A stretch of DNA of 64,000 nt from an uncultured Leptospirales bacterium (GCA_964392365.1 CAYMPH010000004.1:134678-198677); one strand, 5' to 3'; counted from the first letter of the stretch, positions 43,749 through 56,404 are shown. The notes: generated by a model from the sequence alone, not told the origin. Translations and numbers: made by a program.

Positions 43749-43966
43749 AAGGCCTCCAGATTTTTTTATATTCCGTATTTTTAAATTATATTTAAAAATT
43801 GCAACATAGAAATAAAAATATCAATCATAAAATTTTATTCCTTCTCATTTAAAACAACCATGTGTAAGAACAGGGGATAAGGAGATTGTAGAGATAGGGT
43901 GATAAAGAAATTTTTCAATCGCCTCATCTGTTATATCCCCATATTTCCTATTATCTTTTTCTTTCT

Positions 43967-45255: not shown

Positions 45256-45312
45256 AAGGGAAAAAAAGTCTGTCTTTCAGAAGTACAAGCGAATTGTTTG
45301 AATCTCATAAAA

Positions 45313-45348
45313 ATCCGTGTTATCCGTGTTATCTGTGTCATCCGTGTT
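45313..45348. repeat. four tandem 9-bp iterons (ATCCGTGTT ATCCGTGTT ATCTGTGTC ATCCGTGTT)
   Basis: Direct tandem array in the divergent intergenic region between the MFS gene and the 45449 gene. Candidate regulator-binding array. Confidence 0.6.
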
Positions 45349-45448
45349 CTATTTACTTTTTTTCTTATACTAAAAGTTCAAAAAAAATTAATGGAAATTC
45401 ACTTAAAAATCCGATAATAAGACATAACCATGTTTACAAAAGAAAATT

Positions 45449-46453
45449 ATGAAAAATTATATTAAAATATTAATACTGGTGATATTTGCGGCTGTTACTT
45501 TAAAAGCTGAAACTGAACCATCCCTGTTTAAGGTTTATCTGAAAATGGATAAACTTAAATTTCAGGAATCGGAAGACATTATTCTTCATATAAATATTAA
45601 AAATCTCTCAGGCGAGAGAAATTCATTTACAGCTTATGACAGAGACGATTTCAGGGGAATGAGCTACACAACTTTTCAGCCTGTTGTTTATGATATGAGC
45701 GGCCGTATGGCTGAACTTATTGTTCCTTATAAAATGCAGAATAAGTCAATAGAGCAGATTCTGCCTGATCTGCTTGATAGAAATATTGAACTAGGTCCAA
45801 ATGAAACTTTCACACACACTGTAAATCTTGCAAAATTTTTCAAATTGAGTCCGGGAATTAAATACAGGGTTCGCGGATTATTTTATCCTGATATTAAAAG
45901 CGAACTCATGATTAAAGGCGACAATGAGCTGATATTTAAATTAGATAATGACAGATCATTCGTTAACATTAGAAGCGGAATGGTTGAAAAAACTGAAGAC
46001 AGAAGCTATTCTCGGGAAATCGCCCCATCCGAAATAATAACGCTGGCATTGAATGCTGAAAAAAACAATGACTGGGAAAGGCTCAGAAAATATATATTTA
46101 TTGAAAAACTCATAAGCTCATATTCGCGCTATGTAAGAATATATGATCAGTCCGACAGTGCAGGCAGGAAAGAAATTGAGGACGATTTCATTAAATTTTT
46201 ATCCAGGGACAGGCACGATTATATAGTTGACTTCAAGATAATTAAAGAATTTAAAGATGATAAGAACAACAAGGCTTTTGTTGAAGCTCTTGTTGAAAGA
46301 TCCGGATATAAAAAAGCTGACAGATTCAAGTATATCTATACACTTGAAAAAAAAGAATTTACTGAAAAATACACCAATAAAAAAAGCTATGAGCAGAATC
46401 TCTGGCTTATTACCAATGTCGATGCAGTTATAATGAAAGGCGGAACAAAATGA
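45449..46453 (+). CDS. hypothetical secreted protein (signal peptide)
   Basis: 334 aa ORF. The N-terminal MKNYIKILILVIFAAVTLKA is a signal peptide. No recognisable domain. Overlaps the fliM start by 4 nt. Confidence 0.5.
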   Translation: MKNYIKILILVIFAAVTLKAETEPSLFKVYLKMDKLKFQESEDIILHINIKNLSGERNSFTAYDRDDFRGMSYTTFQPVVYDMSGRMAELIVPYKMQNKSIEQILPDLLDRNIELGPNETFTHTVNLAKFFKLSPGIKYRVRGLFYPDIKSELMIKGDNELIFKLDNDRSFVNIRSGMVEKTEDRSYSREIAPSEIITLALNAEKNNDWERLRKYIFIEKLISSYSRYVRIYDQSDSAGRKEIEDDFIKFLSRDRHDYIVDFKIIKEFKDDKNNKAFVEALVERSGYKKADRFKYIYTLEKKEFTEKYTNKKSYEQNLWLITNVDAVIMKGGTK

Positions 46454-47475
46454 CAGAGATATTATCCCAGGATGAAATAGATGCCCTGTTGACGGCCATT
46501 TCCACCGGCGAGGTAGACACGTCGGAGTATTCCCAGGCCAAAGAGCAGAAAAAAGTTAAGATATACGACTTCCGACGTCCGGATAAATTTTCCAAAGACC
46601 ACATCCGTACACTGCAGATGATGCACGAAACATTCGCACGTTTAACAACAACTGCTCTTTCAGCTCAGCTCCGTGCTCTTGTGCATGTTCACGTAGCATC
46701 AGTTGACCAGCTGACATACGAGGAATTCATACGTTCTATTCCGAACCCTACAACACTTGCTGTTATAAATATGGATCCTCTAAAGGGATCCGCAGTACTT
46801 GAAATTGACCCATCCATCACATTTACTATTATTGACAAACTTTTCGGAGGTATGGGCGAGCCTGTTAAAATGAGCCGTGAGTTAACTGATATAGAACTTT
46901 CAGTTATGGAAGGTATCATAGTAAGGATACTCGGCAATCTCCGTGAAGCCTGGTCCAATGTAATTGACCTGAGACCAAGACTTGGAAACATAGAAACCAA
47001 TCCGCAGTTCGCTCAGATAGTTCCGCCGAATGACATGGTGGTACTAATAACGCTCGAAACCAAAGTCGGCGAAGTTGAGGGAATGACAAACCTTTGTATC
47101 CCGTATATTTCCATTGAGCCTGTAATTTCAAAACTATCCGCTCAGTATATGTACTCGAGTATCAGGAAAGGCGCTACTGACGAAAACCTTTCCATTATTC
47201 AAAGCAGACTTGAATCCGTAACTCTTCCTGTTGTGGCAGAAATAGGTGAAGCAAAAATAAGTTTCCGCGAAGTGCTTTCGCTTCTGCCTGGAGACGTTAT
47301 AAAACTCCCTGACACAAAAATCGGATCTGATATGGTATTAAAAGTCGGCGGAAGAAAAAAATTCAAATGCAGACCCGGTCTTGTATCTTCAAGGATTGCA
47401 GTTAAAATCGGAGATAAAATTGAAGAAGTTCCGGATGAGCTGCTCACAACAAAACGAAATGATGATGATCTGTAG
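46450..47475 (+). CDS. fliM: flagellar motor switch protein FliM
   Basis: 341 aa ORF with the N-terminal CheY-P binding motif LSQDEIDALL, the YDFRRP signature, and a C-terminal FliN/SpoA-like domain. Confidence 0.85.
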   Translation: MTEILSQDEIDALLTAISTGEVDTSEYSQAKEQKKVKIYDFRRPDKFSKDHIRTLQMMHETFARLTTTALSAQLRALVHVHVASVDQLTYEEFIRSIPNPTTLAVINMDPLKGSAVLEIDPSITFTIIDKLFGGMGEPVKMSRELTDIELSVMEGIIVRILGNLREAWSNVIDLRPRLGNIETNPQFAQIVPPNDMVVLITLETKVGEVEGMTNLCIPYISIEPVISKLSAQYMYSSIRKGATDENLSIIQSRLESVTLPVVAEIGEAKISFREVLSLLPGDVIKLPDTKIGSDMVLKVGGRKKFKCRPGLVSSRIAVKIGDKIEEVPDELLTTKRNDDDL

Positions 47476-47552
47476 AATTTTCTTCTTCTTTTTAATAAAA
47501 TGCATTAAGAAAACAAAATGTTTTTCACAATTCATTGTCCTACATTCGACAT

Positions 47553-47633
47553 CCTGCAGCATTTAGGAAGCTGGAAGCTGCTATATTTCTTAACTCTCCG
47601 CATGCTAACAGAAAATGTAATTAATTTTTAATC
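47553..47633. repeat. AT-rich intergenic repeat family, copy A (TTTAGGAAG ... TTCTTAACTCTCCGCATGCTAACAGAAAATGTAATTAATTTTTA)
   Basis: Shares conserved blocks with copies at 18936, 49220 and 50618. Lies in the convergent fliM / cyclase spacer. Confidence 0.5.
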
Positions 47634-47670
47634 TTTAAGAATAAAAATTTTCATGTTCCGCATGGAATGG

Positions 47671-49044
47671 TCATCTCCCTTCAATTTCCGAGAGCATTCT
47701 TTTCAAAACTTCAGCAGCGTGGTCAGCCTCCGTCTGGTTAAGGTCAACACGCAGAGAGATCCCCTTTTCTTCTTCTTTCAGTATTTCCCGGGAAGACGGC
47801 GCATTTTCATAGAAGTCGATCACCTGATAGGTGAGGACCGGCGCGGCAATCCCCTTGACCTGTATTTCTCCCATCTCACGGCAGGAAATCCTGTCCTTCA
47901 CCAGAAGCCAGGATTCCTGGGAGATCAGAATCTGGTCCGGGCCGGCATTTGATTCAAGCCTGCTGGCCAGGTTCACCTGTCCGCCGATAATAGTGTAATC
48001 GAGCCTCTCCTCAGACCCGAAATTGCCGACTGTGCAGAACCCGGTGTTGATCCCCATGCGGATGTGAAGCGGACGTGTGACGCCGCGAGCGCGCCATTCC
48101 TCTCTCATCGCGTCCATGCGGTCCCGCATTTCGATGGCCATAGTAACGCATCGGAGTGCATCCTCCCTTTCGCCATGGGTTTCAGGATCGCCAAAGAAGA
48201 TCATAATGGCGTCGCCGATGAACTTGTCGATGGTACCGCCATGCTTCATGGCGATACCGGCCATAGAGTCAAGGTAACTGTTCAGGAGGACGCTCAAGTC
48301 CTCAGCCTCCATCCGGTCTGTGGTCTCGGTGAAACCCTTTATGTCGGAAAAGAATATAGTGAGCTTTTTCCGGGTGGTCTCAATCTTTACATCTTTTTTC
48401 CCGGAAAAGATTGATTCATAGATCTGCGGTGAAAGGTATTTTGAGAGCTTTGACGAAAGCGTTTCGAGCATGCTCTTCTGAATCTTCAGCTCTTTTTTGG
48501 TCTGGCTGAGTTTATTATTCGTATTATAAGAAATAAAATCCTGGGTGAACACCAATATTACAAATCCAAGGCCAATGGTAATTATGTTGAGCATTGAAGA
48601 TTCGGGATTATAGTGAAAGCCGAACAATACAAATCCTGTGAGTATGGCAATTAACAGGGAAATAATTCTGGTTAATAATATTTTAACTCCGCCTGTAACA
48701 ATGCCGACAGAACCGGTAGCAACAAAAAATAATATTACACCAATTGGATTCATCTGAACCAATGGAAGCCATATCCCGCAAACAAAAGGGTCCATATTTA
48801 AGTTGAAATACAGTTCAAATTTCCTCTGGTTTTTGCTAAGACATGCAAGGAGAAAAGCCAGGTGCGGCCACAAAAGGAGTATAGCAATGAATATGATATA
48901 GTAATGTAATTCAAGTTTCAGTTGATAAAAGAATGGCAGACCAACGAGGAATCCAAGGAGACAAAATATTATTCTCCCAATATAATCATTCTTCACCAAA
49001 GGGTGAATCCCGCCGCGTGGCTTAATTTTATGTATCCAGTCCAT
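47671..49044 (-). CDS. class III adenylate/guanylate cyclase with N-terminal 6-TM sensor domain
   Basis: 457 aa ORF with N-terminal TM helices and a cyclase domain (FSDIKGFTETTDRMEAEDL...GDAIMIFFGDP...HIRMGINTG). Confidence 0.8.
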   Translation of the reverse strand: MDWIHKIKPRGGIHPLVKNDYIGRIIFCLLGFLVGLPFFYQLKLELHYYIIFIAILLLWPHLAFLLACLSKNQRKFELYFNLNMDPFVCGIWLPLVQMNPIGVILFFVATGSVGIVTGGVKILLTRIISLLIAILTGFVLFGFHYNPESSMLNIITIGLGFVILVFTQDFISYNTNNKLSQTKKELKIQKSMLETLSSKLSKYLSPQIYESIFSGKKDVKIETTRKKLTIFFSDIKGFTETTDRMEAEDLSVLLNSYLDSMAGIAMKHGGTIDKFIGDAIMIFFGDPETHGEREDALRCVTMAIEMRDRMDAMREEWRARGVTRPLHIRMGINTGFCTVGNFGSEERLDYTIIGGQVNLASRLESNAGPDQILISQESWLLVKDRISCREMGEIQVKGIAAPVLTYQVIDFYENAPSSREILKEEEKGISLRVDLNQTEADHAAEVLKRMLSEIEGR

Positions 49045-49219
49045 TTAGTATCGTCTGCTATAGGGATAATCGGAAATATAATTCACGTTAAAGGCGTGAA
49101 GAAAAAAAGCAAGAAATTTTCCGGTTATCTATCCAGGAATTTAAAACAAGAATAAAATTTTATAATACATCCATCCATACAGGTAACAAATGACAGCTTT
49201 TAAAAAACTAAAAACAACT

Positions 49220-49267
49220 ATAATTCTTAACTTCCTGTATGCTAACAGCAGATATTAATTAAATTTT
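49220..49267. repeat. AT-rich intergenic repeat family, copy B (TAATTCTTAACTTCCTGTATGCTAACAGCAGATATTAATTAAATTTTA)
   Basis: Shares the TTCTTAACT and ATGCTAACAG blocks with copy A. Lies upstream of the cyclase gene. Confidence 0.5.
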
Positions 49268-49273
49268 ACATAA

Positions 49274-50542
49274 TCAATGACTGTTACTGCAGTTTTGAGG
49301 TGAGACTTTCTGAGATTTGAGAAAATATAATGGAGTCATAACAATCAGGCCAACAGCGAGAATCATTAATGCCTGTCCTAAACCGAGATGGTCTGCAAGA
49401 ACGCCGATTATGAAAGCCATGATCGCTGTATAAAATGCAGTCACCAATGACCGCACAGACAATGATGTTGCAAGAATTTCGAACGGTACAGTATCGCTCA
49501 CATAACTCACACTCATAGGTGATCTCAGATTCTGAATAATAAAAATGCCGGTGAAAAGCAATATCGCTGCAAGATTATAGTTTAAAATATAACTCAGACC
49601 GCAGAAAATGCCAAGACCGAAACCTGTAAGCATTGTAATATTCAAGGGTGTTGTTATCACTTTAAACATCGAAGAAAAAGTACCGGCGCTGCGGCTTGCA
49701 CGGGAGGTCATCAGATAAATACAGAAGTAGACAATTCCTACCAGAACTGCTGAGCGCTGTTTTTCATGCAAAAAAGCAAGCAGTGGCAGGGCTACAGCCA
49801 TGCTCTTAACTACAGGCTGCAGAAAATCCTTGACTGCATTGTAAAAACCGTCATAGATGCATACGTTAGTTGTAGCCCGCAAAGCTCCCTGGCCTTTGAA
49901 TGTAATGACTAAACTTTTCCACACTGAAACAAAACTCTCTTTAATAGATCCGCCCTTATGAATTTCTCCGTCAAGCTCAGCCGGATAAGAAAGCATAAGA
50001 AACAGGTTGATAATATATGGCAATATCGAGACAAGAAATATCACATCGTAACGGCCGCTCATGAATACGATCCCTGCCGCTATCAGGGCTGAAAGAGCTG
50101 ATCCTCTCTGCGACCAAGAACGCGTATGCCCGTAATAATCGACTTTCTGATCCTGCCAGCCATTAATTCTCAAGTATTCGAATATCATAGCCTTGTGCGT
50201 TCCGCCTCTAAAAGCTTCACCAAAGGCAAACATAGTCATGCCGAGCATTAAAAGCCAAAATGACGTTGCAAAATAAAATATCACAAAAGAAATTATATAG
50301 GATAAAAACGACTGCACCATTGAGCGTCTTCTGCCGAAAGCATCCGCAATAACACCGGTAGGAACCTCAAGCACATTGGTCATGATCTCGCGGTATGCGT
50401 AAAGTGTGCCGATCAGAGTAAAGCTCATATTTTTTTCAAGCAGAAATAAAACCAGAAAAGGCTCAAAGAGTTTCAGATTTTTAAGGAAGCCATAAGAGCT
50501 GAACTTGGCGTATTGAATATCTTTTTTATATTTATCATTCAT
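49274..50542 (-). CDS. MFS-family transporter
   Basis: 422 aa ORF with 12 predicted TM segments. Confidence 0.65.
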   Translation of the reverse strand: MNDKYKKDIQYAKFSSYGFLKNLKLFEPFLVLFLLEKNMSFTLIGTLYAYREIMTNVLEVPTGVIADAFGRRRSMVQSFLSYIISFVIFYFATSFWLLMLGMTMFAFGEAFRGGTHKAMIFEYLRINGWQDQKVDYYGHTRSWSQRGSALSALIAAGIVFMSGRYDVIFLVSILPYIINLFLMLSYPAELDGEIHKGGSIKESFVSVWKSLVITFKGQGALRATTNVCIYDGFYNAVKDFLQPVVKSMAVALPLLAFLHEKQRSAVLVGIVYFCIYLMTSRASRSAGTFSSMFKVITTPLNITMLTGFGLGIFCGLSYILNYNLAAILLFTGIFIIQNLRSPMSVSYVSDTVPFEILATSLSVRSLVTAFYTAIMAFIIGVLADHLGLGQALMILAVGLIVMTPLYFLKSQKVSPQNCSNSH

Positions 50543-50617
50543 ATATATTTCTGAGAAACTGAGATAAAAAAAGCAAAAAGTTTTTCTCAGTTCATTGCTG
50601 TAAATATAGCAGAATGC

Positions 50618-50675
50618 ATTTTATAAGAAGCTAAATTCAAGTAAAATTTTTATTCCCGTATGTTAATAAAATTTG
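50618..50675. repeat. AT-rich intergenic repeat family, copy D (AGAAGCTAAATTCAAGTAAAATTTTTATTCCCGTATGTTAATAAAATTTG)
   Basis: Shares the 17-nt block TAAATTCAAGTAAAATT with copy C. Lies 70-150 nt upstream of the MFS start. Confidence 0.5.
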
Positions 50676-50781
50676 TTTATTAAAATTTATAATGATAAAA
50701 AAAATTATGAAATGTGTAACCTTTTTACAAAAGAATACGTCTTTAAGTAAATCGGATTTATAAAATTTAAAGAGGTATTTA

Positions 50782-51324
50782 ATGGAATGTTCAAAACAGA
50801 CAGAAAAAGAAAAATCATCAGAAATGCAGGAAAAATACAAAATTGAAATAGATAAAACAGGCGGTAAATGTCCTGCAGGAGAAAAACGGGGTGAGGAAAA
50901 TATTCTGAAAAAAGCAATACCGGTTTTATCGTGTGAAGGTGCATGCATACGCGGGGAAATCGCTAGAATCGCTGCAAATCTGATATCAAAAGAAGAAGGA
51001 TACTCAAGAGGATGCCATGGGGAATTTCTGACTATTCCGGATTCTGCAATAGCAGAATGGATCAGGAATGCTGAAAAAGTTGTGGTTGTTGACGGATGTT
51101 TTTTAAAATGCCATAAACGCATATTTAATAATATTCTTGATGAATCAAAAATCTGCAGTTTTGATGCACTGTCATATTATGGAAAATATACAGAATATTT
51201 TGATCCGGATTCTGTTCCTGAAAAAGAACTTAAACAGGTTGCAGCAGATGTTGCAGCTAAGATAATTAATGATCTCAGAAAAAATATTACTGCATCAGCT
51301 AAAGAATGCTGTGCATGCTCATAA
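50782..51324 (+). CDS. Cys-rich DGC-domain protein (putative metal-binding)
   Basis: 180 aa ORF with several Cys pairs and VVVDGCFLKCH (DGC motif). SD AAGAGG. The overlapping minus-strand ORF 50637-51122 is low-complexity and rejected. Confidence 0.5.
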   Translation: MECSKQTEKEKSSEMQEKYKIEIDKTGGKCPAGEKRGEENILKKAIPVLSCEGACIRGEIARIAANLISKEEGYSRGCHGEFLTIPDSAIAEWIRNAEKVVVVDGCFLKCHKRIFNNILDESKICSFDALSYYGKYTEYFDPDSVPEKELKQVAADVAAKIINDLRKNITASAKECCACS

Positions 51325-51339
51325 AAATAAGGAGGAATT

Positions 51340-51603
51340 ATGGCTAATTTATCATTAAAAGAATTATCACTTGTTTCGCTTGGGGCTTCAATTGGATCAA
51401 ACTGCATTCCATGCGTTGTTTATCATATAAAACAGTGCAGGAACAGCGGTCTTTCTGATGATCAGATAAAAAGTGCAGTTAAGATGGCTGTAAAAGTGAA
51501 AAATGTCCCGGCTGAAAATGTTCTTTCATCAGCTTTAAGACAACTGGATATTCAGGAAAGCAATGAACAGTGTTCTCCGGAACAGCCTTGCAGTTGTAGT
51601 TGA
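51340..51603 (+). CDS. AhpD-like / carboxymuconolactone decarboxylase-family small protein (CxxC)
   Basis: 87 aa ORF. NCIPCVVYH matches the AhpD-core CxxCxxxH motif. SD AAGGAGGA. Confidence 0.55.
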   Translation: MANLSLKELSLVSLGASIGSNCIPCVVYHIKQCRNSGLSDDQIKSAVKMAVKVKNVPAENVLSSALRQLDIQESNEQCSPEQPCSCS

Positions 51604-51649
51604 CACGGCTGCTATAAGAGTATATAATTAAATCAATGAGGAAAAATAT

Positions 51650-52225
51650 ATGGAAATAAAAGATACTTCCGTAATAAGTATTGAATCATTTATAAAGGAT
51701 TATAACGATGCTCTCTACAGATATTTAAGAAAAATTACAGGCAGCGGAGAGGATGCTGAAGATATACTTCAGGAAAGCCTGATAAAAATAGCCGAATCCC
51801 TTTCGTCTCTCAATGATCCATTAAGAATAAAAACATGGGCTTTCAGAATAGTAACAAACACAGCAATGGACTTTTTCAGGAAAAATAAAAAAGTAAATTA
51901 TGTTGAATTTGATGAAAAATTATATGACCCTGAGATTAAAGAAGACGATATTGAGGATAAAATTATTGTTGATGAAATGAACGAATGCATAAGGGGAGAA
52001 ATGAGCCGTATAGCCCCTAATTACAATAATGTATTGATACTTTATTATTTTGAGCATATGAATATTTCAGAGATTGCAAGTATTTGTGATATATCGCTTG
52101 CAACAGTCAAGATACGCCTGCATCGCGGGAAAAAATTATTAAATAAAATTTTATCAGAAGGCTGCAATTTTTATTACGATAAAAACAGCAATATAAGATG
52201 CAGCAGCAAACCGGCCGGGAAATGA
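51650..52225 (+). CDS. ECF-type RNA polymerase sigma-70 factor
   Basis: 191 aa ORF with region 2 (DAEDILQESLIKI...WAFRIVTN) and region 4 HTH (ISEIASICDISLATVKIRLHRG). Confidence 0.8.
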   Translation: MEIKDTSVISIESFIKDYNDALYRYLRKITGSGEDAEDILQESLIKIAESLSSLNDPLRIKTWAFRIVTNTAMDFFRKNKKVNYVEFDEKLYDPEIKEDDIEDKIIVDEMNECIRGEMSRIAPNYNNVLILYYFEHMNISEIASICDISLATVKIRLHRGKKLLNKILSEGCNFYYDKNSNIRCSSKPAGK

Positions 52226-52590
52226 ATTAACTCAATATTAAAATATGTACCGGGATATTTCTCGATGGAATTTCAGAAAATAACAAACAGGAAAATACCG
52301 GATTATATTTATTTCAACTCTGCTTTTTAAAAAACCACTCCCAGTCAGACCTGTTCTGGATTTCATTAATAATTAATAAAAAATTTCTCCAGTTAAATCT
52401 GCAAGTATGCTTCTATCATTTTCAAACATAAAAAAAATAAAATCATTCAAATAAAAAAATCAGAATCTCTGTATCCTTTTAATAAATTAATACGTCTATA
52501 GTTCTGAAAACCAGGCACTTTGCAGGAATAAATTTTTAAATTAAACCTGATCTTGCCTGAAAACTAATTTTATAAATCAAGGAGAGTAAT

Positions 52591-52815
52591 ATGAAAGAAG
52601 AAGTTCAAAAATCAAAACACAATTTTATTTCGGTTGGTCTCGGAATACTGGTCATTGCTGTTGGATCAGCCTGGCTGCTGAAGTCATTCGGAATCCTTCC
52701 TGAAAATTTTGAAATGCTGAAGTATGCATGCCCTGTATGTGTCATACTGGTTGGCGCCGGCATCTTATTGAAACGGAATTCAAAGAACGATAAAAATATT
52801 CAGGGGGATATTTAA
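52591..52815 (+). CDS. small membrane protein (2 TM), unknown function
   Basis: 74 aa ORF with two hydrophobic helices and a CPVC pair. Translationally abutting the next gene. Confidence 0.4.
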   Translation: MKEEVQKSKHNFISVGLGILVIAVGSAWLLKSFGILPENFEMLKYACPVCVILVGAGILLKRNSKNDKNIQGDI

Positions 52816-53385
52816 ATGGGTGATAAATTTTTCTTCTTTGGATTTATCGGTTTTGCTGTAATACTTGTTTTGTTTATTATTAGACTTCTGGTCAGAAAAA
52901 TTAATATCTTTGCCAGGCCGCCTATTAATGTAATTGCATTTATATCAGCAAAAATATGCGCATTCGGCTCATGCTCATTTATACCCCTCGGTGTATTGTT
53001 TCCCGAGTTAAAATGGCAGACAACGCCTGCACCTGTTACTGCAGGCGGCCTGATATTATTTTCTGCAGGCATTTTTTTTGCCGTTATTTCAATGAAAAAA
53101 CTCGGAGATGATTTAATATTCGGATTGCCTGAATCCGGGATAAAATCGCTCAAAACTGATGGAATTTACACAGTCAGCAGAAATCCTCTATACCTCGGTT
53201 TTATTTTAATTATCATCTCATCATGGATCTGCACTCCAAATCCTGTAAACATTGCTGCTGGAATCGCTGCAATTATATTGCACCATATCATTGTGCTGCG
53301 GGAGGAGAAATATTTAATATCACGCATTGGCATAAAATATATCAATTATACTGAAAAAACAGGACGCTACCTGTTGTATATTTAA
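52816..53385 (+). CDS. isoprenylcysteine carboxyl methyltransferase (ICMT/PEMT) family membrane methyltransferase
   Basis: 189 aa ORF with multiple TM segments and the C-terminal RNPLYLGFIL...HHIIVLREEKYLISRIG signature region. Confidence 0.65.
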   Translation: MGDKFFFFGFIGFAVILVLFIIRLLVRKINIFARPPINVIAFISAKICAFGSCSFIPLGVLFPELKWQTTPAPVTAGGLILFSAGIFFAVISMKKLGDDLIFGLPESGIKSLKTDGIYTVSRNPLYLGFILIIISSWICTPNPVNIAAGIAAIILHHIIVLREEKYLISRIGIKYINYTEKTGRYLLYI

Positions 53386-53511
53386 TATGGAGAAAAAATT
53401 AAAACCAGCGCATATTCCTTTAAAAGAAGCGAAATTATCATAATACGATGTTTACTATTTGATCCCGCAGGGCCGTTGTCTAAAACGGTCCTGCGCTTTC
53501 CACAAGCGGTA

Positions 53512-53580
53512 TTTGGAGATAAAATCGAAGAAGTACAGGATGAACTGCTCACTACAAAACGAAACGATTATGATCTGTAA
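53512..53580 (+). pseudogene. duplicated, decayed copy of the fliM 3' end (last ~21 codons plus stop)
   Basis: GGAGATAAAATCGAAGAAGTACAGGATGAACTGCTCACTACAAAACGAAACGATTATGATCTGTAA is about 88% identical to fliM 47410-47478 (DKIEEVQDELLTTKRNDYDL* vs DKIEEVPDELLTTKRNDDDL*). No in-frame start upstream. Confidence 0.7.
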
Positions 53581-53582
53581 AA

Positions 53583-55724
53583 TTACAGAGATGCAGTATT
53601 TATAATAAATCTAATTGAATTTTCATCGATCAGAAGTTTTCTTGAAATTTCATCTGCAGGCCATCCTTTTTTAGACAGTTCCCGCACAGTTTTAATTACG
53701 CTTTCATTTATGTTTTTCGGCAGCTGGACATCACCCTTGACCTGTTTGGCAATAGGGCCTGCATTATCAACACTCTGTATAAAATCCGCAAGCTGCTTTA
53801 TCTTTTTATCTGTCTGATGAAACATTTCCTGAAGTCTTCCGTCTGTATTATCCAGATCATCTTTAAGAGATTCCACTTTATTGAACATTGCATTTATCTG
53901 CTCGATTCTCTTCTCTATGTGTGATGATATGCTGTCTATTTCAGAGAATTTATCCTTAACTTCCTGAATTTCCCGTTCACGTGATTTAAGAATCAGCGTT
54001 GTTTCCTCTATCTTATGCAGATATTCGCTCATTCTGTCGATTCTCTTATCAGACTTGTCAATAACCTTCTGGAATGCGGATACTTTGTTTTCAACAGTTT
54101 TTATTATAATTTCAGATTTTGTCGCTGATTCAAGATTTTTTGCAATAAGATCCTCATATTCCTTCAGCTCATCAATCTGCTGGGAAAGCCCTCTGTAGCT
54201 TTCTGAGAGTGAATCAATTCGTCCATTGACCTGATTGATTTTAAAAATATTTTCATTGAATGCTTCAGATTTTTCCATAATAATATCGCTCAATTCAAGA
54301 AGACCCTTAATCTCGCTTTCGACATTATCAAGTTTCTCTTTCTTAGCCTGATAAGCCCTGATCTCTTTCTCAACAATTTTCTTCATATCCTTAATATGAT
54401 CAAAATCATTTAAAAATTTGCCGAGACCTTTTGCTTCTTCTTTTGAATCAGCAAGGATTCTTCCGAAATGGCTTAAAGATTCATCAACCTTCTGAATCAT
54501 TAAATCTGATCTTGCGAATATTTTATTGCTTTCCTCATATTTAACTATTTCAGATTTTATATCGCCAAGACGTTTTTCAAGAGATCCGAATTCTTTTTTC
54601 ACGCCCTCGAGGTTGCCTGCAATCGCATCAGTTAATTCGTTTTCGTATGTACCCAGCCTGTCTTCAAGACTTCCGAATCTCGTTTCAATGGTAATAAATT
54701 CTTCATTGAGATGTTCTATTTTTTCTTCTGCAGTATTAATAAGCCGTGTTTCTATTTTAGAATATTTTTCCTCAAATTCATCCATTATATTCCGGATATC
54801 TTCGGCTTCCTTGCGTGCAGCTTTTACAATCTCATCTTTTTTGGATACAGCGTGAATGCTCAGATTATCAAATTCATTTCTTACCTTTTCAGCTTCCAGT
54901 TCAAAAGATCTAACAAGTTTCTGCTTCGATTCTTCAACATTATCTTCAACATTTTTCAGCATGCCCTGAATTTTATTTATTTCAAAATCAACTGAATCAA
55001 ACATTTTCTTTTTATGATCATTTATTTCCGAGAAAACAGTATTGTCAAGATCGGCCATTGTGGTTTTCATTGAGTTGATCTGATAAGATAAATTTGCAGC
55101 TCCTTCAACGGTTTTAGCCACACCTTCAACTTTTTTCTTAAGATCTTCAATTATAGCATCGCCTGTATTTCCAAGTTTCTGCTCAAGAACTGCAAGAGAC
55201 TCTGAAAAATTATTTGATGAATCCTCAGAAATCTCCCTGGATCTTTCTCTTAGTTTCTCAGTAAACGCCTGCATCAGCTCATTACTTTCGTTTTTAATTC
55301 CTGCAAGTCCGTCATTAAGAAAATTTATTTTTTTCGACAGATCCTTAAAGTCTTCCTTGGCAGCTGCTATAAACTCAATCTGCTTATTGGCTTCTCTTCC
55401 GGCTATTGCAATTGATTTTACATCATCCTCTATTTTCCTTAATCCGTTTCTTTCCTGATTAATCATGCTGAATTTAGATTCAATATCTTTAAGAGAAGCT
55501 GTCAGACTGGCTGAGACTGCCGAGGTTCTCTTCAGCAGAACATCCATTTCAATAGTTGCATCGCTGAACTTCCTGTTTTCTGATTCAGCAAGTTTTTTAA
55601 AATCATCAAACATCTTCTGTGAATAGCGCTTAAGCTTATTCATTCGAAGATTAGATTTATCAATTCTTCTGAATAGGAAAAGAAGTAAAATGCAAGATGC
55701 AAAGGTTATAATATTTAAAATCAT
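53583..55724 (-). CDS. membrane-anchored long coiled-coil protein, unknown function
   Basis: 713 aa ORF with an N-terminal TM helix, then heptad-rich low-complexity sequence throughout. No enzymatic motif. Confidence 0.5.
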   Translation of the reverse strand: MILNIITFASCILLLFLFRRIDKSNLRMNKLKRYSQKMFDDFKKLAESENRKFSDATIEMDVLLKRTSAVSASLTASLKDIESKFSMINQERNGLRKIEDDVKSIAIAGREANKQIEFIAAAKEDFKDLSKKINFLNDGLAGIKNESNELMQAFTEKLRERSREISEDSSNNFSESLAVLEQKLGNTGDAIIEDLKKKVEGVAKTVEGAANLSYQINSMKTTMADLDNTVFSEINDHKKKMFDSVDFEINKIQGMLKNVEDNVEESKQKLVRSFELEAEKVRNEFDNLSIHAVSKKDEIVKAARKEAEDIRNIMDEFEEKYSKIETRLINTAEEKIEHLNEEFITIETRFGSLEDRLGTYENELTDAIAGNLEGVKKEFGSLEKRLGDIKSEIVKYEESNKIFARSDLMIQKVDESLSHFGRILADSKEEAKGLGKFLNDFDHIKDMKKIVEKEIRAYQAKKEKLDNVESEIKGLLELSDIIMEKSEAFNENIFKINQVNGRIDSLSESYRGLSQQIDELKEYEDLIAKNLESATKSEIIIKTVENKVSAFQKVIDKSDKRIDRMSEYLHKIEETTLILKSREREIQEVKDKFSEIDSISSHIEKRIEQINAMFNKVESLKDDLDNTDGRLQEMFHQTDKKIKQLADFIQSVDNAGPIAKQVKGDVQLPKNINESVIKTVRELSKKGWPADEISRKLLIDENSIRFIINTASL

Positions 55725-56224
55725 TATATCAGCTCCGAAAATTAAATATTGAGGATTGCATTAAATCTATTATAAATTAATTTCCATCAATGCCGGGAAA
55801 AGGATAGATTCACAAAGATGAAAGCCATTGCCTTTTCAGAAACAACAGAGCATGATGAAAACTAAAATTTGCATGATATAAAGCATCAGTAAAGACTCTT
55901 TATAAGAATAAGTATGGAATCCCGCATATGCATTAAATAAACATCGATATGATTTTGTCAATACTAATTTATGTCACATTAGAAAGTGCTTTTTTATCAT
56001 TCCTGATTTTTATTATTTGACAATAATATGATGAAAAATAAATTTACCCTTTTATAATGGTACAATTGCTGTAATTACAGAATTTGTGCCTGCTAAGGAA
56101 CTGTAAAATAATTATGTTCACAGATTCATATTTTGATTAAAATGTAACATGTTGCAGAATTTTTGTCATAATTACAGTTAAAATCAGAAAAGCTTCATAT
56201 TATATATAGAAGAGGTAACTTATA

Positions 56225-56383
56225 ATGAAAAGGACTTTCCAGCCAAGCAGAATCAAACGAAACAGAAAACATGGTTTCAGGAGCAGAAACAGCACACCTG
56301 AAGGAAGAGCAGTTATTAAAAGACGAAGAAGAAAAGGTAGATATAAACTTACAGTTTCAGATGAAAAAAGACTGCCGAAATAA
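56225..56383 (+). CDS. rpmH: 50S ribosomal protein L34
   Basis: 52 aa ORF not in the track: [44 protein letters not shown], the L34 signature. SD AGAGGT. Confidence 0.85.
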
Positions 56384-56404
56384 TAATATAATTATATTAA
56401 ATGC

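What the first reader, a model, noticed from the sequence alone, without database searches (positions are those of the whole stretch)
47410..53580. 6-kb island inserted into the 3' end of fliM, bracketed by ~67-bp direct repeats of the fliM terminus
The last ~21 codons plus stop of fliM (47410-47478) recur at 53512-53580 at about 88% identity. The downstream copy is non-coding, with no in-frame start. This is the signature of an element that integrated into the 3' end of a gene, supplied a replacement terminus and displaced the original. The usual target is a tRNA or tmRNA; here it is a protein gene. The intervening 6 kb encodes a 6TM class-III adenylate cyclase, an MFS transporter, a DGC-domain Cys-rich protein, an AhpD-like CxxC protein, an ECF sigma factor, a small membrane protein and an ICMT-family methyltransferase. 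No integrase or recombinase is visible, so the mobilising function is absent, degraded or unconventional.
Basis: seen in the sequence. Interest (0 to 1): 0.65.

Follow-up and report, generated by a model that had tools for sequence, protein, structure and literature searches.

The report
Gene island inserted into fliM's end
A 6.1-kb block of accessory genes sits inside the last 66 bases of the flagellar gene fliM of an uncultured Leptospirales bacterium, having brought its own copy of the gene's end; a relative still has the empty site, but this is a new case of a known kind of insertion, not a new mechanism.

Summary
Window 47410-47479 (last 21 codons, stop and 4 nt of fliM) recurs at 53515-53584, 62/70 identical. 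The downstream copy ends 2 nt from the stop codon of a convergent 713-aa coiled-coil gene.

The insertion reading is supported. A metagenomic relative (L103) has the empty site: intact fliM, 2 nt, then that gene's stop, with no island and no duplicate. Every other relative carries something different at this spot:
- L001: 1.55 kb and a decayed remnant.
- L095: 4.1 kb, with an internal fliM-end copy bracketing a single ATPase-nuclease gene.
- L096: a pristine remnant.
- L087: a different gene.

So the end of fliM is a repeatedly used insertion site, not the scene of one recent event.

None of the cargo intervals seen encodes a recombinase (two only in part). The window's cargo is compositionally mixed. 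Its cyclase has homologues in ordinary, unrelated contexts in other Spirochaetota.

Best reading: decayed integrative islets that kept their attachment-site repeats and lost, or never had, their own integrase, as in e14 at icd or streptococcal cis-mobilizable elements. Integrase-free routes are not excluded.

Verdict: a new member of a known kind, of moderate interest.

The parts
46450..47475 (+). fliM, 341 aa, intact. The last 21 codons and the stop lie inside the repeat.
   Evidence: Pfam FliM 2.3e-82 and FliMN_C 1.2e-19, the latter ending at residue 324. The protein differs at one residue (K323R) from that of relative L001.
47410..47479 (+). Repeat copy 1 (attL-like). This is the working fliM terminus: 21 codons, stop TAG and AATT. 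Inferred to have arrived, at least in part, with the insert.
   Evidence: The stop is TAG here and in the other occupied genomes. It is TAA in the empty-site relative L103 and in the window's remnant.
47671..49044 (-). Cargo: membrane-bound class III nucleotidyl cyclase (MASE2 plus Guanylate_cyc).
   Evidence: Pfam. GC3 is 0.54 against a background of 0.23-0.39. The closest homologues (65% and 54% identity) lie in unrelated contexts. The PADLOC PycC hits reflect general cyclase similarity only.
49274..50542 (-). Cargo: MFS transporter.
   Evidence: Pfam MFS_1. GC3 is 0.42.
50782..51324 (+). Cargo: Cys-rich DGC-domain protein.
   Evidence: Pfam PF08859, 2.4e-13.
51340..51603 (+). Cargo: small CMD/AhpD-like protein.
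   Evidence: Pfam PF02627, 6.5e-11.
51600..51628 (+). Sigma-70-type promoter-like site matching the consensus at 12 of 12 positions, just upstream of the ECF sigma gene.
   Evidence: This is a consensus match only.
51650..52225 (+). Cargo: ECF sigma factor.
   Evidence: Pfam Sigma70_r2 and Sigma70_r4_2.
52591..52815 (+). Cargo: 74-aa membrane protein with a LiaF-like transmembrane region.
   Evidence: Pfam PF22570 and PF18917 at about 4e-6.
52816..53385 (+). Cargo: PEMT/ICMT-family membrane methyltransferase.
   Evidence: Pfam PF04191, 1e-10.
53466..53495 (+). 12-bp-stem hairpin at the right end of the cargo, probably the terminator of the methyltransferase gene. It sets the left limit of the remnant.
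   Evidence: Folds at -26.7 kcal/mol, z = -3.4.
53515..53584 (+). Repeat copy 2 (attR-like). This is the displaced native fliM terminus, now non-coding. Its stop is TAA, and its last 2 nt overlap the stop codon of the convergent gene.
   Evidence: The junction matches the empty site in L103. Both amino-acid-changing differences (P to Q, D to Y) lie in this copy.
53583..55724 (-). Right flank: the convergent 713-aa coiled-coil membrane-anchored protein, the original neighbour of fliM.
   Evidence: 97% identical to the L001 and L095 proteins. It directly abuts fliM in L103.

Best explanation
**What is shown.** In the ancestor of this small Leptospirales clade, fliM and a 713-aa coiled-coil gene converged with only 2 nt between their stop codons. 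One relative still has this arrangement. In the window's lineage, 6,105 nt entered fliM 66 nt before the end of its stop codon. The incoming DNA carried its own copy of the last 21 codons, the stop and 4 nt. fliM therefore stayed intact, and the native terminus was pushed 6.1 kb downstream, where it is decaying.

The same site is occupied by different DNA in every other relative seen. One relative (L095) has two fliM-end copies bracketing a single-gene unit. The right-end junction of that unit recurs in a second genome (L001).

**What is inferred.** These occupants are integrative islets that recombine at an attachment site within the last roughly 70 nt of fliM. They have lost their own recombinase, or rely on one encoded elsewhere. 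This is the state described for cis-mobilizable elements (CIMEs), including tandem accretion.

The window's cargo is a cyclase, a transporter and a small ECF-sigma, thiol and membrane gene set. It is accessory, of mixed origin, and now probably immobile.

**Confidence.** About 0.9 for insertion with a replacement terminus. About 0.45-0.5 for the recombinase-in-trans, decayed-element mechanism.
For: 1. **The repeat is real.** It is far above chance. An independent Logan contig spans both junctions.
2. **Empty site.** L103 has intact fliM, then CTGTAA-AA-TTA, the stop of the 713-aa gene. This matches the remnant junction in the window. L103 carries its own variants on both sides, about 10% in fliM and 11/120 in the right flank.
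3. **Different cargo, same flanks.** L001 has 1.55 kb and L095 has 4.1 kb. L087 has a different gene, and L096 has a WG-repeat gene next to a pristine 111-nt remnant.
4. **Array in L095.** The order is fliM tail A, 146 nt, the AAA_14-DUF4143 gene, 194 nt, then tail B (88.7% identical to tail A over 106 nt). Next comes a 96-nt piece of an older copy of the same gene.
5. **Shared junctions.** Tail B of L095 and the L001 remnant are both preceded by GAAATGATTATT. That motif occurs once in each locus. The junction of tail with truncated gene is also the same in L001 and L095. Together these imply a discrete unit with defined ends that was present at least twice.
6. **Remnants of different ages.**
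   - L096: no amino-acid change in 111 nt.
   - Window: 8/70 differences.
   - L095 tail B: about 11%.
   - L001: about 30%, with an indel.
   - For scale, neutral (4-fold) divergence between these genomes is 0.17-0.57.
7. **The fliM end is unusually divergent.** Between the window and L001, synonymous codon differences are 17/33 in the last 102 nt. They are 81/308 in the rest of the gene.
8. **Precedent.** e14 is flanked by icd and the icdC C-terminal pseudogene, with synonymous differences between them (PMC13626634). CIMEs and tandem accretion at the 3' end of target genes are described in PMC5704250.
Against: - **No recombinase.** No integrase, excisionase, transfer or phage gene lies in any cargo interval seen: window, L001, L095 and the visible parts of L096 and L087.
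  - Ten mid-size ORFs elsewhere in the window also lack one.
  - The largest non-coding gap in the island is 365 nt, and its reading-frame fragments match no family.
- **Left limits differ.** The duplicated fliM end begins at 47410 in the window, 47381 in L001 and L095 tail B, and 47369 in L096. This fits erosion, or elements with different attachment sites. It is not what one fixed attachment site predicts.
- **No mobile-element match.** Phage and plasmid collections match only the cyclase catalytic domain at about 65%. A degenerate fliM-end pattern found nothing in viral contigs.
- **The cargo is not a module.** It is compositionally mixed and is not seen as a block elsewhere.
- **The synonymous bias weakens when polarised.** Six of 8 differences preserve the peptide (P = 0.002-0.007 if all changes are treated as random). 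Once differences are assigned to copies, 5 are remnant-specific, 3 synonymous and 2 not. That split is compatible with neutral decay.
Confidence: 0.5

Rival explanations
1. Integrase-free mobility by homology. A DNA circle forms by recombination between the two fliM-end copies in a donor, or a linear fragment is taken up. It carries a captured fliM terminus and inserts into the recipient's fliM end. Insertion is by RecA-dependent single crossover, or by homology on one side and an illegitimate join on the other. No dedicated recombinase is ever needed.
For: - No recombinase lies in any occupant.
- The flanks are a mosaic of recent homologous exchange. Window and L001 show 0/300 differences at 46149-46448 but about 10% elsewhere.
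- The fliM tree disagrees with that of the 713-aa gene.
- Variable left limits of the duplicated end fit crossovers or joins at variable positions.
- A circle with a fixed sequence would carry the same GAAATGATTATT-tail junction into each insertion.
Against: - Homology of 70-111 nt at 80-90% identity is a poor RecA substrate.
- The right limit of the duplicated end is the same in all occupants (stop plus AATT). That looks more like a defined site than a random join.
- Every fliM-end copy encodes the clade-specific ending TTKRNDDDL (with one or two substitutions in the decaying copies). The ends were therefore captured within this clade, which needs an extra step.
Confidence: 0.25
2. Local duplication followed by ordinary gene gain and loss. 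A roughly 110-nt tandem duplication of the fliM end arose once. It created the only neutral space between two genes whose stops were 2 nt apart. Unrelated DNA later landed there by illegitimate recombination. Unequal crossing-over between the two copies made arrays and deletions. Gene conversion from fliM keeps some remnants looking young.
For: - The duplicated segment always ends at stop plus AATT, as a single founding duplication predicts. The left limits shrink as expected from erosion: 47369, then 47381, then 47410.
- Unequal crossing-over explains the L095 array and the shared junctions without any element.
- Polarised differences in the window remnant are compatible with neutral decay.
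- The cargo is heterogeneous.
Against: - One old duplication does not by itself explain the pristine remnant in L096, or the window remnant being younger than the window-L001 split. Repeated gene conversion must be added.
- The L096 remnant differs from the working L001 and L095 ends at 4/70 positions. It differs at 8-12 from the L103 and window ends. That is unexpected if each remnant only tracks its own genome.
- The fliM end is about twice as divergent at synonymous sites as the rest of the gene between window and L001.
Confidence: 0.2
3. Assembly artefact. The island was joined to fliM wrongly in a metagenome-assembled genome, or the apparent empty site (L103) is a collapsed repeat.
For: - All the sequences are metagenomic.
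- L103 is only 1,573 nt.
- The Logan contig for the island ends 60-70 nt outside each repeat.
Against: - Two assemblies agree base for base across both junctions.
- The two copies share no exact run longer than 11 nt (read from the aligned copies). Assemblers therefore cannot confuse them.
- Three further assemblies from other samples show the same kind of structure.
- L103 has lineage-specific variants on both sides of its junction.
Confidence: 0.03

Closest known systems
e14 element and phage 21 at the icd gene of Escherichia coli
   Same: - Insertion is into the 3' end of a protein-coding gene.
- The element supplies a replacement C-terminal coding segment, and the native segment persists as a pseudogene (icdC) at the far end.
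- The two copies differ mostly by synonymous changes.
- Excision recreates a hybrid gene.

Source: PMC13626634.
   Different: e14 and phage 21 encode their own integrase and are prophages. Nothing here or in the relatives encodes a recombinase or a phage gene. The target is fliM, and the duplicated segment is shorter, 70-111 nt.
Cis-mobilizable elements (CIMEs) and tandem accretion of integrative elements in streptococci
   Same: - Islands keep attL and attR but have lost integration and transfer genes.
[quoted passage not shown] This produces tandem arrays with internal attachment-site copies (PMC5704250).
- The L095 array (tail A, unit, tail B, older truncated unit) has this form.
   Different: Streptococcal CIMEs are recognisably derived from integrative conjugative elements, and partner elements with matching integrases are known. 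No parent element, integrase remnant or partner has been found here. Streptococcal repeats are typically tens of bases with exact cores; these are 70-111 nt at 70-89% identity.
tRNA- and tmRNA-targeted genomic islands
   Same: The logic is the same. The element carries the 3' part of its target gene, so the gene survives insertion, and direct repeats of the gene end flank the island.
   Different: The target is a protein gene. No integrase lies next to the target gene, which is the usual position in tRNA islands.
Single-gene AAA_14-DUF4143 ATPase-nuclease genes (PADLOC defence candidate PDC-S01)
   Same: The occupant of the site in L095, truncated in L001, is one such gene. Scores: PDC-S01 1.9e-83; Pfam AAA_14 and DUF4143. 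DUF4143 is listed in the PD-(D/E)XK nuclease superfamily (PMC3424549).
   Different: The window's island has no such gene. A second paralogue between coaBC and the MFS gene in L001 and L095 has no flanking gene-end duplication. No role in mobility is known for this family.

Membership tests
Integrative element using the 3' end of a gene as attachment site (e14 / phage 21 / ICE / IME type) | Direct repeats made of the duplicated target-gene terminus flank the inserted DNA. | tested here: met
   70 nt, 62/70 identical, at 47410-47479 and 53515-53584.
Integrative element using the 3' end of a gene as attachment site (e14 / phage 21 / ICE / IME type) | Related genomes have an unoccupied site with a single, intact gene end. 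| tested here: met
   In L103, fliM is followed after 2 nt by the stop of the 713-aa gene, with no duplicate.
Integrative element using the 3' end of a gene as attachment site (e14 / phage 21 / ICE / IME type) | The element encodes a tyrosine or serine recombinase. | tested here: not met
   Pfam on all seven island ORFs and on intergenic reading-frame fragments finds none. None is called in the L001, L095 or L096 intervals.
Integrative element using the 3' end of a gene as attachment site (e14 / phage 21 / ICE / IME type) | The element excises as a circle and restores the attachment site. | not testable with these tools
   This needs read-level data or PCR on the source samples.
Cis-mobilizable element (CIME) | attL and attR are retained, and integration and transfer genes are absent. 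| tested here: met
Cis-mobilizable element (CIME) | Tandem accretion occurs, with an internal attachment-site copy between units. | tested here: met
   Seen in relative L095, not in the window itself: tail A, unit, tail B, truncated older unit.
Cis-mobilizable element (CIME) | The element derives from an ICE or IME by deletion, and is mobilised by a related element's integrase. | not testable with these tools
   No parent element or partner integrase was found in any sequence available. Whole genomes of the clade could not be searched.
Transposon or insertion sequence | A transposase, terminal inverted repeats and a short target-site duplication. | tested here: not met
   There is no transposase. 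No inverted repeat pairs the island ends. The duplication is 70 nt of gene end, not 2-15 nt.
Pycsar anti-phage system | A cyclase (PycC) with an adjacent effector. | tested here: not met
   The cyclase matches PycC models at 3.3e-28. This is the same order as its generic Guanylate_cyc match. No other island protein, including the neighbouring MFS transporter, matches any PADLOC model.
Flagellar switch protein FliM | FliM and FliMN_C domains, at full length. | tested here: met
   2.3e-82 and 1.2e-19. The protein is 83-100% identical to those of the 80 Leptospirales loci kept.

The most novel reading that the evidence does not exclude
The occupants of this site move without any integrase. They would be minimal units whose only fixed feature is a captured fliM terminus. 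The smallest is the roughly 1.6-kb unit in L095, which carries a single ATPase-nuclease (AAA_14-DUF4143) gene between two 106-nt fliM ends. Such units would circularise and re-insert by homology, possibly helped by the nuclease they encode. That would be a new, very small class of self-restoring mobile element aimed at a tightly packed gene junction.
Probability: 0.12. Interest if true: 0.7.

Novelty: new member of a known kind. Interest (0 to 1): 0.42.

Why it matters
- **A clean natural example.** It shows how accessory genes can enter a junction with no free space (two stop codons 2 nt apart) without harming either gene, because the insert carries a spare gene end.
- **A new target.** fliM joins the short list of protein genes used as attachment sites. 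A full-text search for fliM together with 'genomic island' and 'integrated into the 3' found no paper.
- **Turnover at one site.** The contents differ between every pair of relatives examined. They include a candidate anti-phage gene in two relatives and a signalling and stress gene set in the window.
- **Practical use.** The fliM to coiled-coil-gene interval is a ready marker for strain-level variation in these uncultured Leptospirales. The lack of a recombinase makes it a test case for how decayed islets persist or move.

Tried and rejected
1. **A longer repeat in the window.** I first took the repeat to be about 100 nt. I rejected this because the extra stretch is a hairpin after the methyltransferase gene.
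2. **fliM-end duplicates in 79 more distant Leptospirales loci.** None was found. There fliM is usually followed by a convergent M23 peptidase gene (65 of 80 loci). Insertions between the two carry ordinary genes and no duplicate.
3. **Ancestral adjacency in relatives with 44-53% identical coiled-coil homologues.** fliM is not adjacent in any of them, so the adjacency belongs to the narrow clade only.
4. **The island as a conserved module.** The cyclase's best homologues (65% and 54%) lie in unrelated contexts.
5. **Phage, plasmid and viral-contig searches.** These gave only generic cyclase-domain matches, or nothing.
6. **Searching with the 38-aa remnant peptide.**
   - The word-index search returned only the query itself.
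   - The exhaustive search returned short FliM C-terminal fragments. Two that looked like fusions sit on contigs of 560 and 838 nt, the first at about 1x coverage. I regard them as chimeras.
7. **Cryptic recombinase remnants.** Reading-frame fragments from the island's five non-coding gaps match nothing.
8. **Pycsar reading of the cyclase.** Rejected, because there is no effector.
9. **Gene-end duplication at a second AAA_14-DUF4143 insertion.** This is the paralogue between coaBC and the MFS gene in L001. No duplication is present.
10. **A replication origin next to the island.** DnaA-box matches do not cluster there.
11. **The synonymous-bias test.** It is significant under a naive null but not once differences are assigned to copies. 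I use it only as supporting evidence.

Full report
**1. The observation**

fliM occupies 46450-47475 (341 aa; Pfam FliM 2.3e-82 and FliMN_C 1.2e-19).

- Its last 21 codons, stop TAG and the next 4 nt (47410-47479) recur at 53515-53584. The match is 62/70 identical with spacing 6105. blastn gives E = 2.9e-17.
- The second copy reads GDKIEEVQDELLTTKRNDYDL* in the fliM frame. It has no in-frame ATG.
- Its stop TAA (53578-53580) lies 2 nt from the stop (53583-53585) of a convergent 713-aa coiled-coil gene.
- The sequence just left of the second copy is not fliM. It is a 12-bp-stem hairpin at 53466-53495 (-26.7 kcal/mol, z = -3.4). The repeat in this window is therefore 70 nt.

Seven ORFs lie between the copies. 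A Logan contig from run SRR13723393 is identical to window 47349-53652.

**2. Whose genome, and which relatives**

A scan of species-representative genomes with FliM returned 80 loci, all uncultured Leptospirales or Spirochaetota. Further searches used the 713-aa protein and exact-sequence look-ups. Together they give a small clade that shares the flanks.

| Locus | Source | Contig / locus size |
|---|---|---|
| L001 | NCBI CAZGWD010000003 | 291,514-nt contig |
| L095 (= L101) | ENA ERZ27284379 k139_211086 | 74,594-nt contig |
| L087 | JGI Ga0124853_1384814 | 1.6 kb |
| L096 | JGI Ga0453684_0069978 | 4.4 kb |
| L103 | JGI Ga0393259_0062125 | 1.6 kb |

Fourfold-site divergence in the 713-aa gene:
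- L001 to L095: 0.17.
- Window to either L001 or L095: 0.34-0.35.
- L096 to the others: 0.51-0.57.

L103 differs from the window, L001 and L095 by about 10% in fliM and 13% in the upstream gene.

**3. The empty site**

In L103 an intact fliM ends ...GACCTGTAA, followed by AA and then TTA. That TTA is the stop of the convergent gene, whose C-terminus reads ...SRKLLIDENSIRFIINTASL.

This is base for base the junction that follows the remnant in the window (CTGTAAAATTACAGAG). L103 has no island and no second fliM end. It carries its own variants on both sides of the junction, so it is not a chimera of the other genomes.

The native arrangement had 2 nt between two stop codons. The copy next to the coiled-coil gene in the window is the displaced native terminus.

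Two details fit:
- The native stop is TAA in L103 and in the window's remnant. The working ends in the occupied genomes have TAG.
- Both amino-acid-changing differences lie in the remnant.

**4. The site is used repeatedly**

| Genome | Between fliM and the coiled-coil gene | fliM-end copies |
|---|---|---|
| Window | 6.1 kb, seven genes | working end plus a 70-nt remnant |
| L001 | 1.55 kb: 5' 369 nt of an AAA_14-DUF4143 gene, then a 315-aa ORF | working end plus a decayed remnant (about 70% identity, 3-nt indel) abutting the coiled-coil gene |
| L095 | 4.1 kb, array described below | tail A plus internal tail B; no remnant at the coiled-coil gene |
| L096 | WG-repeat gene; the contig then ends | pristine 111-nt remnant, called as the 38-aa ORF MKISRPGLVSSRIAVKIGDRIEEVPDELLTTKRNDDDL, 2 nt from the coiled-coil stop |
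| L087 | a different gene with a terminator next to the coiled-coil gene | nothing recognisable |
| L103 | empty | one |

The order in L095 is as follows:
1. fliM with tail A;
2. 146 nt;
3. a full AAA_14-DUF4143 gene on the opposite strand;
4. 194 nt;
5. tail B, 88.7% identical to tail A over 106 nt;
6. a 96-nt duplicate of codons about 120-88 of the same gene, 98% identical;
7. a 331-aa gene;
8. an FGE-sulfatase gene;
9. the coiled-coil gene.

Shared junctions link L095 and L001:
- Tail B of L095 and the L001 remnant are both preceded by GAAATGATTATT. That motif occurs once in each locus.
- The junction of a fliM end with the truncated ATPase gene is the same in both. It lies at an 11-nt microhomology, TTTCTTT[C/T]ACA.

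The simplest history is an ancestor with two such units in tandem and three fliM ends. L001 then lost the first unit. L095 replaced the distal part.

**5. Ages and histories of the ends**

Remnants differ widely in decay:
- L096: none in 111 nt.
- Window: 8/70.
- L095 tail B: about 11%.
- L001: about 30%.

The window's remnant has 5 changes of its own in 70 nt. That is less than the roughly 0.17 expected per lineage since the window-L001 split. The window's insertion, or a resetting of its remnant, is therefore younger than that split.

Three further signals suggest mixed histories:
- Between window and L001, synonymous codon differences are 17/33 in the last 102 nt of fliM against 81/308 upstream.
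- The L096 remnant differs from the working L001 and L095 ends at 4/70 positions, against 8-12 for the L103 and window ends.
- The flanks are mosaic. Window and L001 are identical over 46149-46448 (0/300) but about 10% apart elsewhere. The L001-L095 distance in fliM is as large as window-L095, unlike in the coiled-coil gene.

These are small samples. They are consistent with fliM ends moving with the inserts, and with frequent homologous exchange around the site.

**6. The cargo in the window**

- GC3 is 0.54 for the cyclase and 0.42 for the MFS gene. The other five genes have 0.21-0.39, within the window's background of 0.23-0.39.
- The cyclase's nearest homologues (65% and 54% identity, both Spirochaetota) lie among unrelated housekeeping genes.
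- Nothing matches phages. Plasmids match only the cyclase catalytic domain, at about 65%.
- PADLOC matches the cyclase to Pycsar cyclase models at a level no better than the generic cyclase domain. No effector is adjacent.
- The DGC, AhpD-like, ECF-sigma, LiaF-like and methyltransferase genes look like a small envelope or thiol stress set. A consensus sigma-70-type promoter lies before the sigma gene. That functional reading is inference from the domains alone.

**7. Mechanism**

*Shown:* insertion into the fliM end with a replacement terminus; an unoccupied site in a relative; different occupants in close relatives; an array with an internal fliM end; junctions shared between two genomes.

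*Not shown:* what catalyses any of it.
- No recombinase is present in any occupant.
- None is among ten mid-size ORFs elsewhere in the window.
- The island's largest non-coding gap is 365 nt.

I favour decayed integrative islets that kept their attachment-site repeats. A recombinase would act in trans or has been lost. This is the CIME and accretion pattern (PMC5704250), on the model of e14 at icd (PMC13626634). My confidence in it is about 0.45-0.5.

Two integrase-free rivals remain:
- Homology-driven insertion of circles or fragments carrying a captured fliM end (about 0.25).
- One founding tandem duplication that created a landing pad, followed by ordinary gain and loss, unequal crossing-over and gene conversion (about 0.2).

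The differing left limits of the duplicated end (47369, 47381, 47410) and the polarised substitution pattern (3 synonymous and 2 non-synonymous changes on the remnant) keep both rivals alive.

**8. Comparison with known systems, and novelty**

The structure works like e14 or phage 21 at icd, and like tRNA-targeted islands. In its recombinase-less, arrayed form it works like streptococcal CIMEs.

It fails the membership test for a self-sufficient integrative element, because it has no recombinase. It meets the structural criteria for a CIME. Its origin from a larger element and its mobilisation in trans could not be tested.

fliM as the target appears to be unreported. A full-text search for fliM together with 'genomic island' and 'integrated into the 3' found no paper. 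I rate it a new member of a known kind.

The most novel reading still open is that these units move without an integrase. The roughly 1.6-kb, single-gene ATPase-nuclease unit of L095 would be the minimal form. DUF4143 belongs to the PD-(D/E)XK superfamily (PMC3424549), and the gene matches PADLOC candidate PDC-S01 at 1.9e-83. I put this reading at about 0.12.

**9. Verdict**

- The mechanism is partly inferred.
- Interest is moderate: 0.42.

Noticed in passing
L095:10809-12544 (minus strand relative to the locus); L001:11030-11398: In relative L095, a roughly 1.6-kb unit holds only an AAA_14-DUF4143 ATPase-nuclease gene and is bracketed by two 106-nt fliM ends. The gene matches PADLOC defence candidate PDC-S01 at 1.9e-83. 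In L001 the same gene is cut down to its first 120 codons, at an 11-nt microhomology directly after the fliM stop.
   Followed up: yes
window 43749-43966; L001:6062-7282: L001 and L095 carry a second AAA_14-DUF4143 paralogue (406 aa) between coaBC and the MFS gene. The window has about 125 nt of unrelated sequence there instead. No flanking repeats or gene-end duplication mark that insertion.
   Followed up: yes
window 46149-46448: The window and L001 are identical over 300 nt here, but about 10% apart in neighbouring stretches. Other segments pair L001 with L095 instead. The flanks of the site are a mosaic of recent homologous exchange.
   Followed up: partly
window 51600-51628: A sigma-70-type promoter-like site matches the consensus perfectly (TTGACA, 17 nt, TATAAT). 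It ends 21 nt upstream of the ECF sigma factor gene inside the island.
   Followed up: no
window 45449-46453: A 334-aa ORF with no Pfam match overlaps the fliM start by 4 nt (ATGA). It precedes fliM in nearly all of the 80 Leptospirales loci, at only 31-42% identity outside the close clade. It may be a conserved but fast-evolving partner gene of fliM.
   Followed up: no
window about 45300-56400: Genes to the left are almost all on the minus strand. Genes to the right (rnpA, yidD, yidC, jag, mnmE, preceded by a 52-aa ORF where rpmH would be expected) are on the plus strand. This resembles a replication origin region, but DnaA-box matches do not cluster there and no dnaA was seen in the part of the window annotated (38-64 kb).
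   Followed up: partly
L002-L080 (e.g. L002:11089-12114): In 65 of 80 Leptospirales loci, fliM is followed by a convergent gene of about 340 aa encoding an M23 peptidase. Several loci have 1-6 kb of ordinary genes between the two and no fliM-end duplicate. One is L007, whose extra ORFs looked by eye like a CO-dehydrogenase cluster; I did not scan them against Pfam. The fliM to coiled-coil adjacency is peculiar to the narrow clade.
   Followed up: partly
L097 (560 nt) and L098 (838 nt): Two tiny metagenomic contigs encode apparent fusions of a FliM C-terminus to unrelated N-termini. One N-terminus is the ACT domain of the acetolactate synthase small subunit, joined at a DV(V/I)KL microhomology. 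Given the very short contigs, and the roughly 1x coverage recorded in the name of the 560-nt one, these are probably chimeric assemblies.
   Followed up: partly
L094 (= window 47349-53652): The Logan contig for the island stops 61 nt left of the first repeat and 68 nt right of the second. This may reflect branching of the assembly graph, caused by co-occurring related strains or by variants without the island in that sample.
   Followed up: no
window 47671-49044: The island's cyclase has a much higher GC3 (0.54) than any other gene examined in the window. Its only near homologue (65% identity) is in a Spirochaetota genome, in a locus of 51.5% GC. This suggests separate and fairly recent acquisition of this one gene.
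   Followed up: partly
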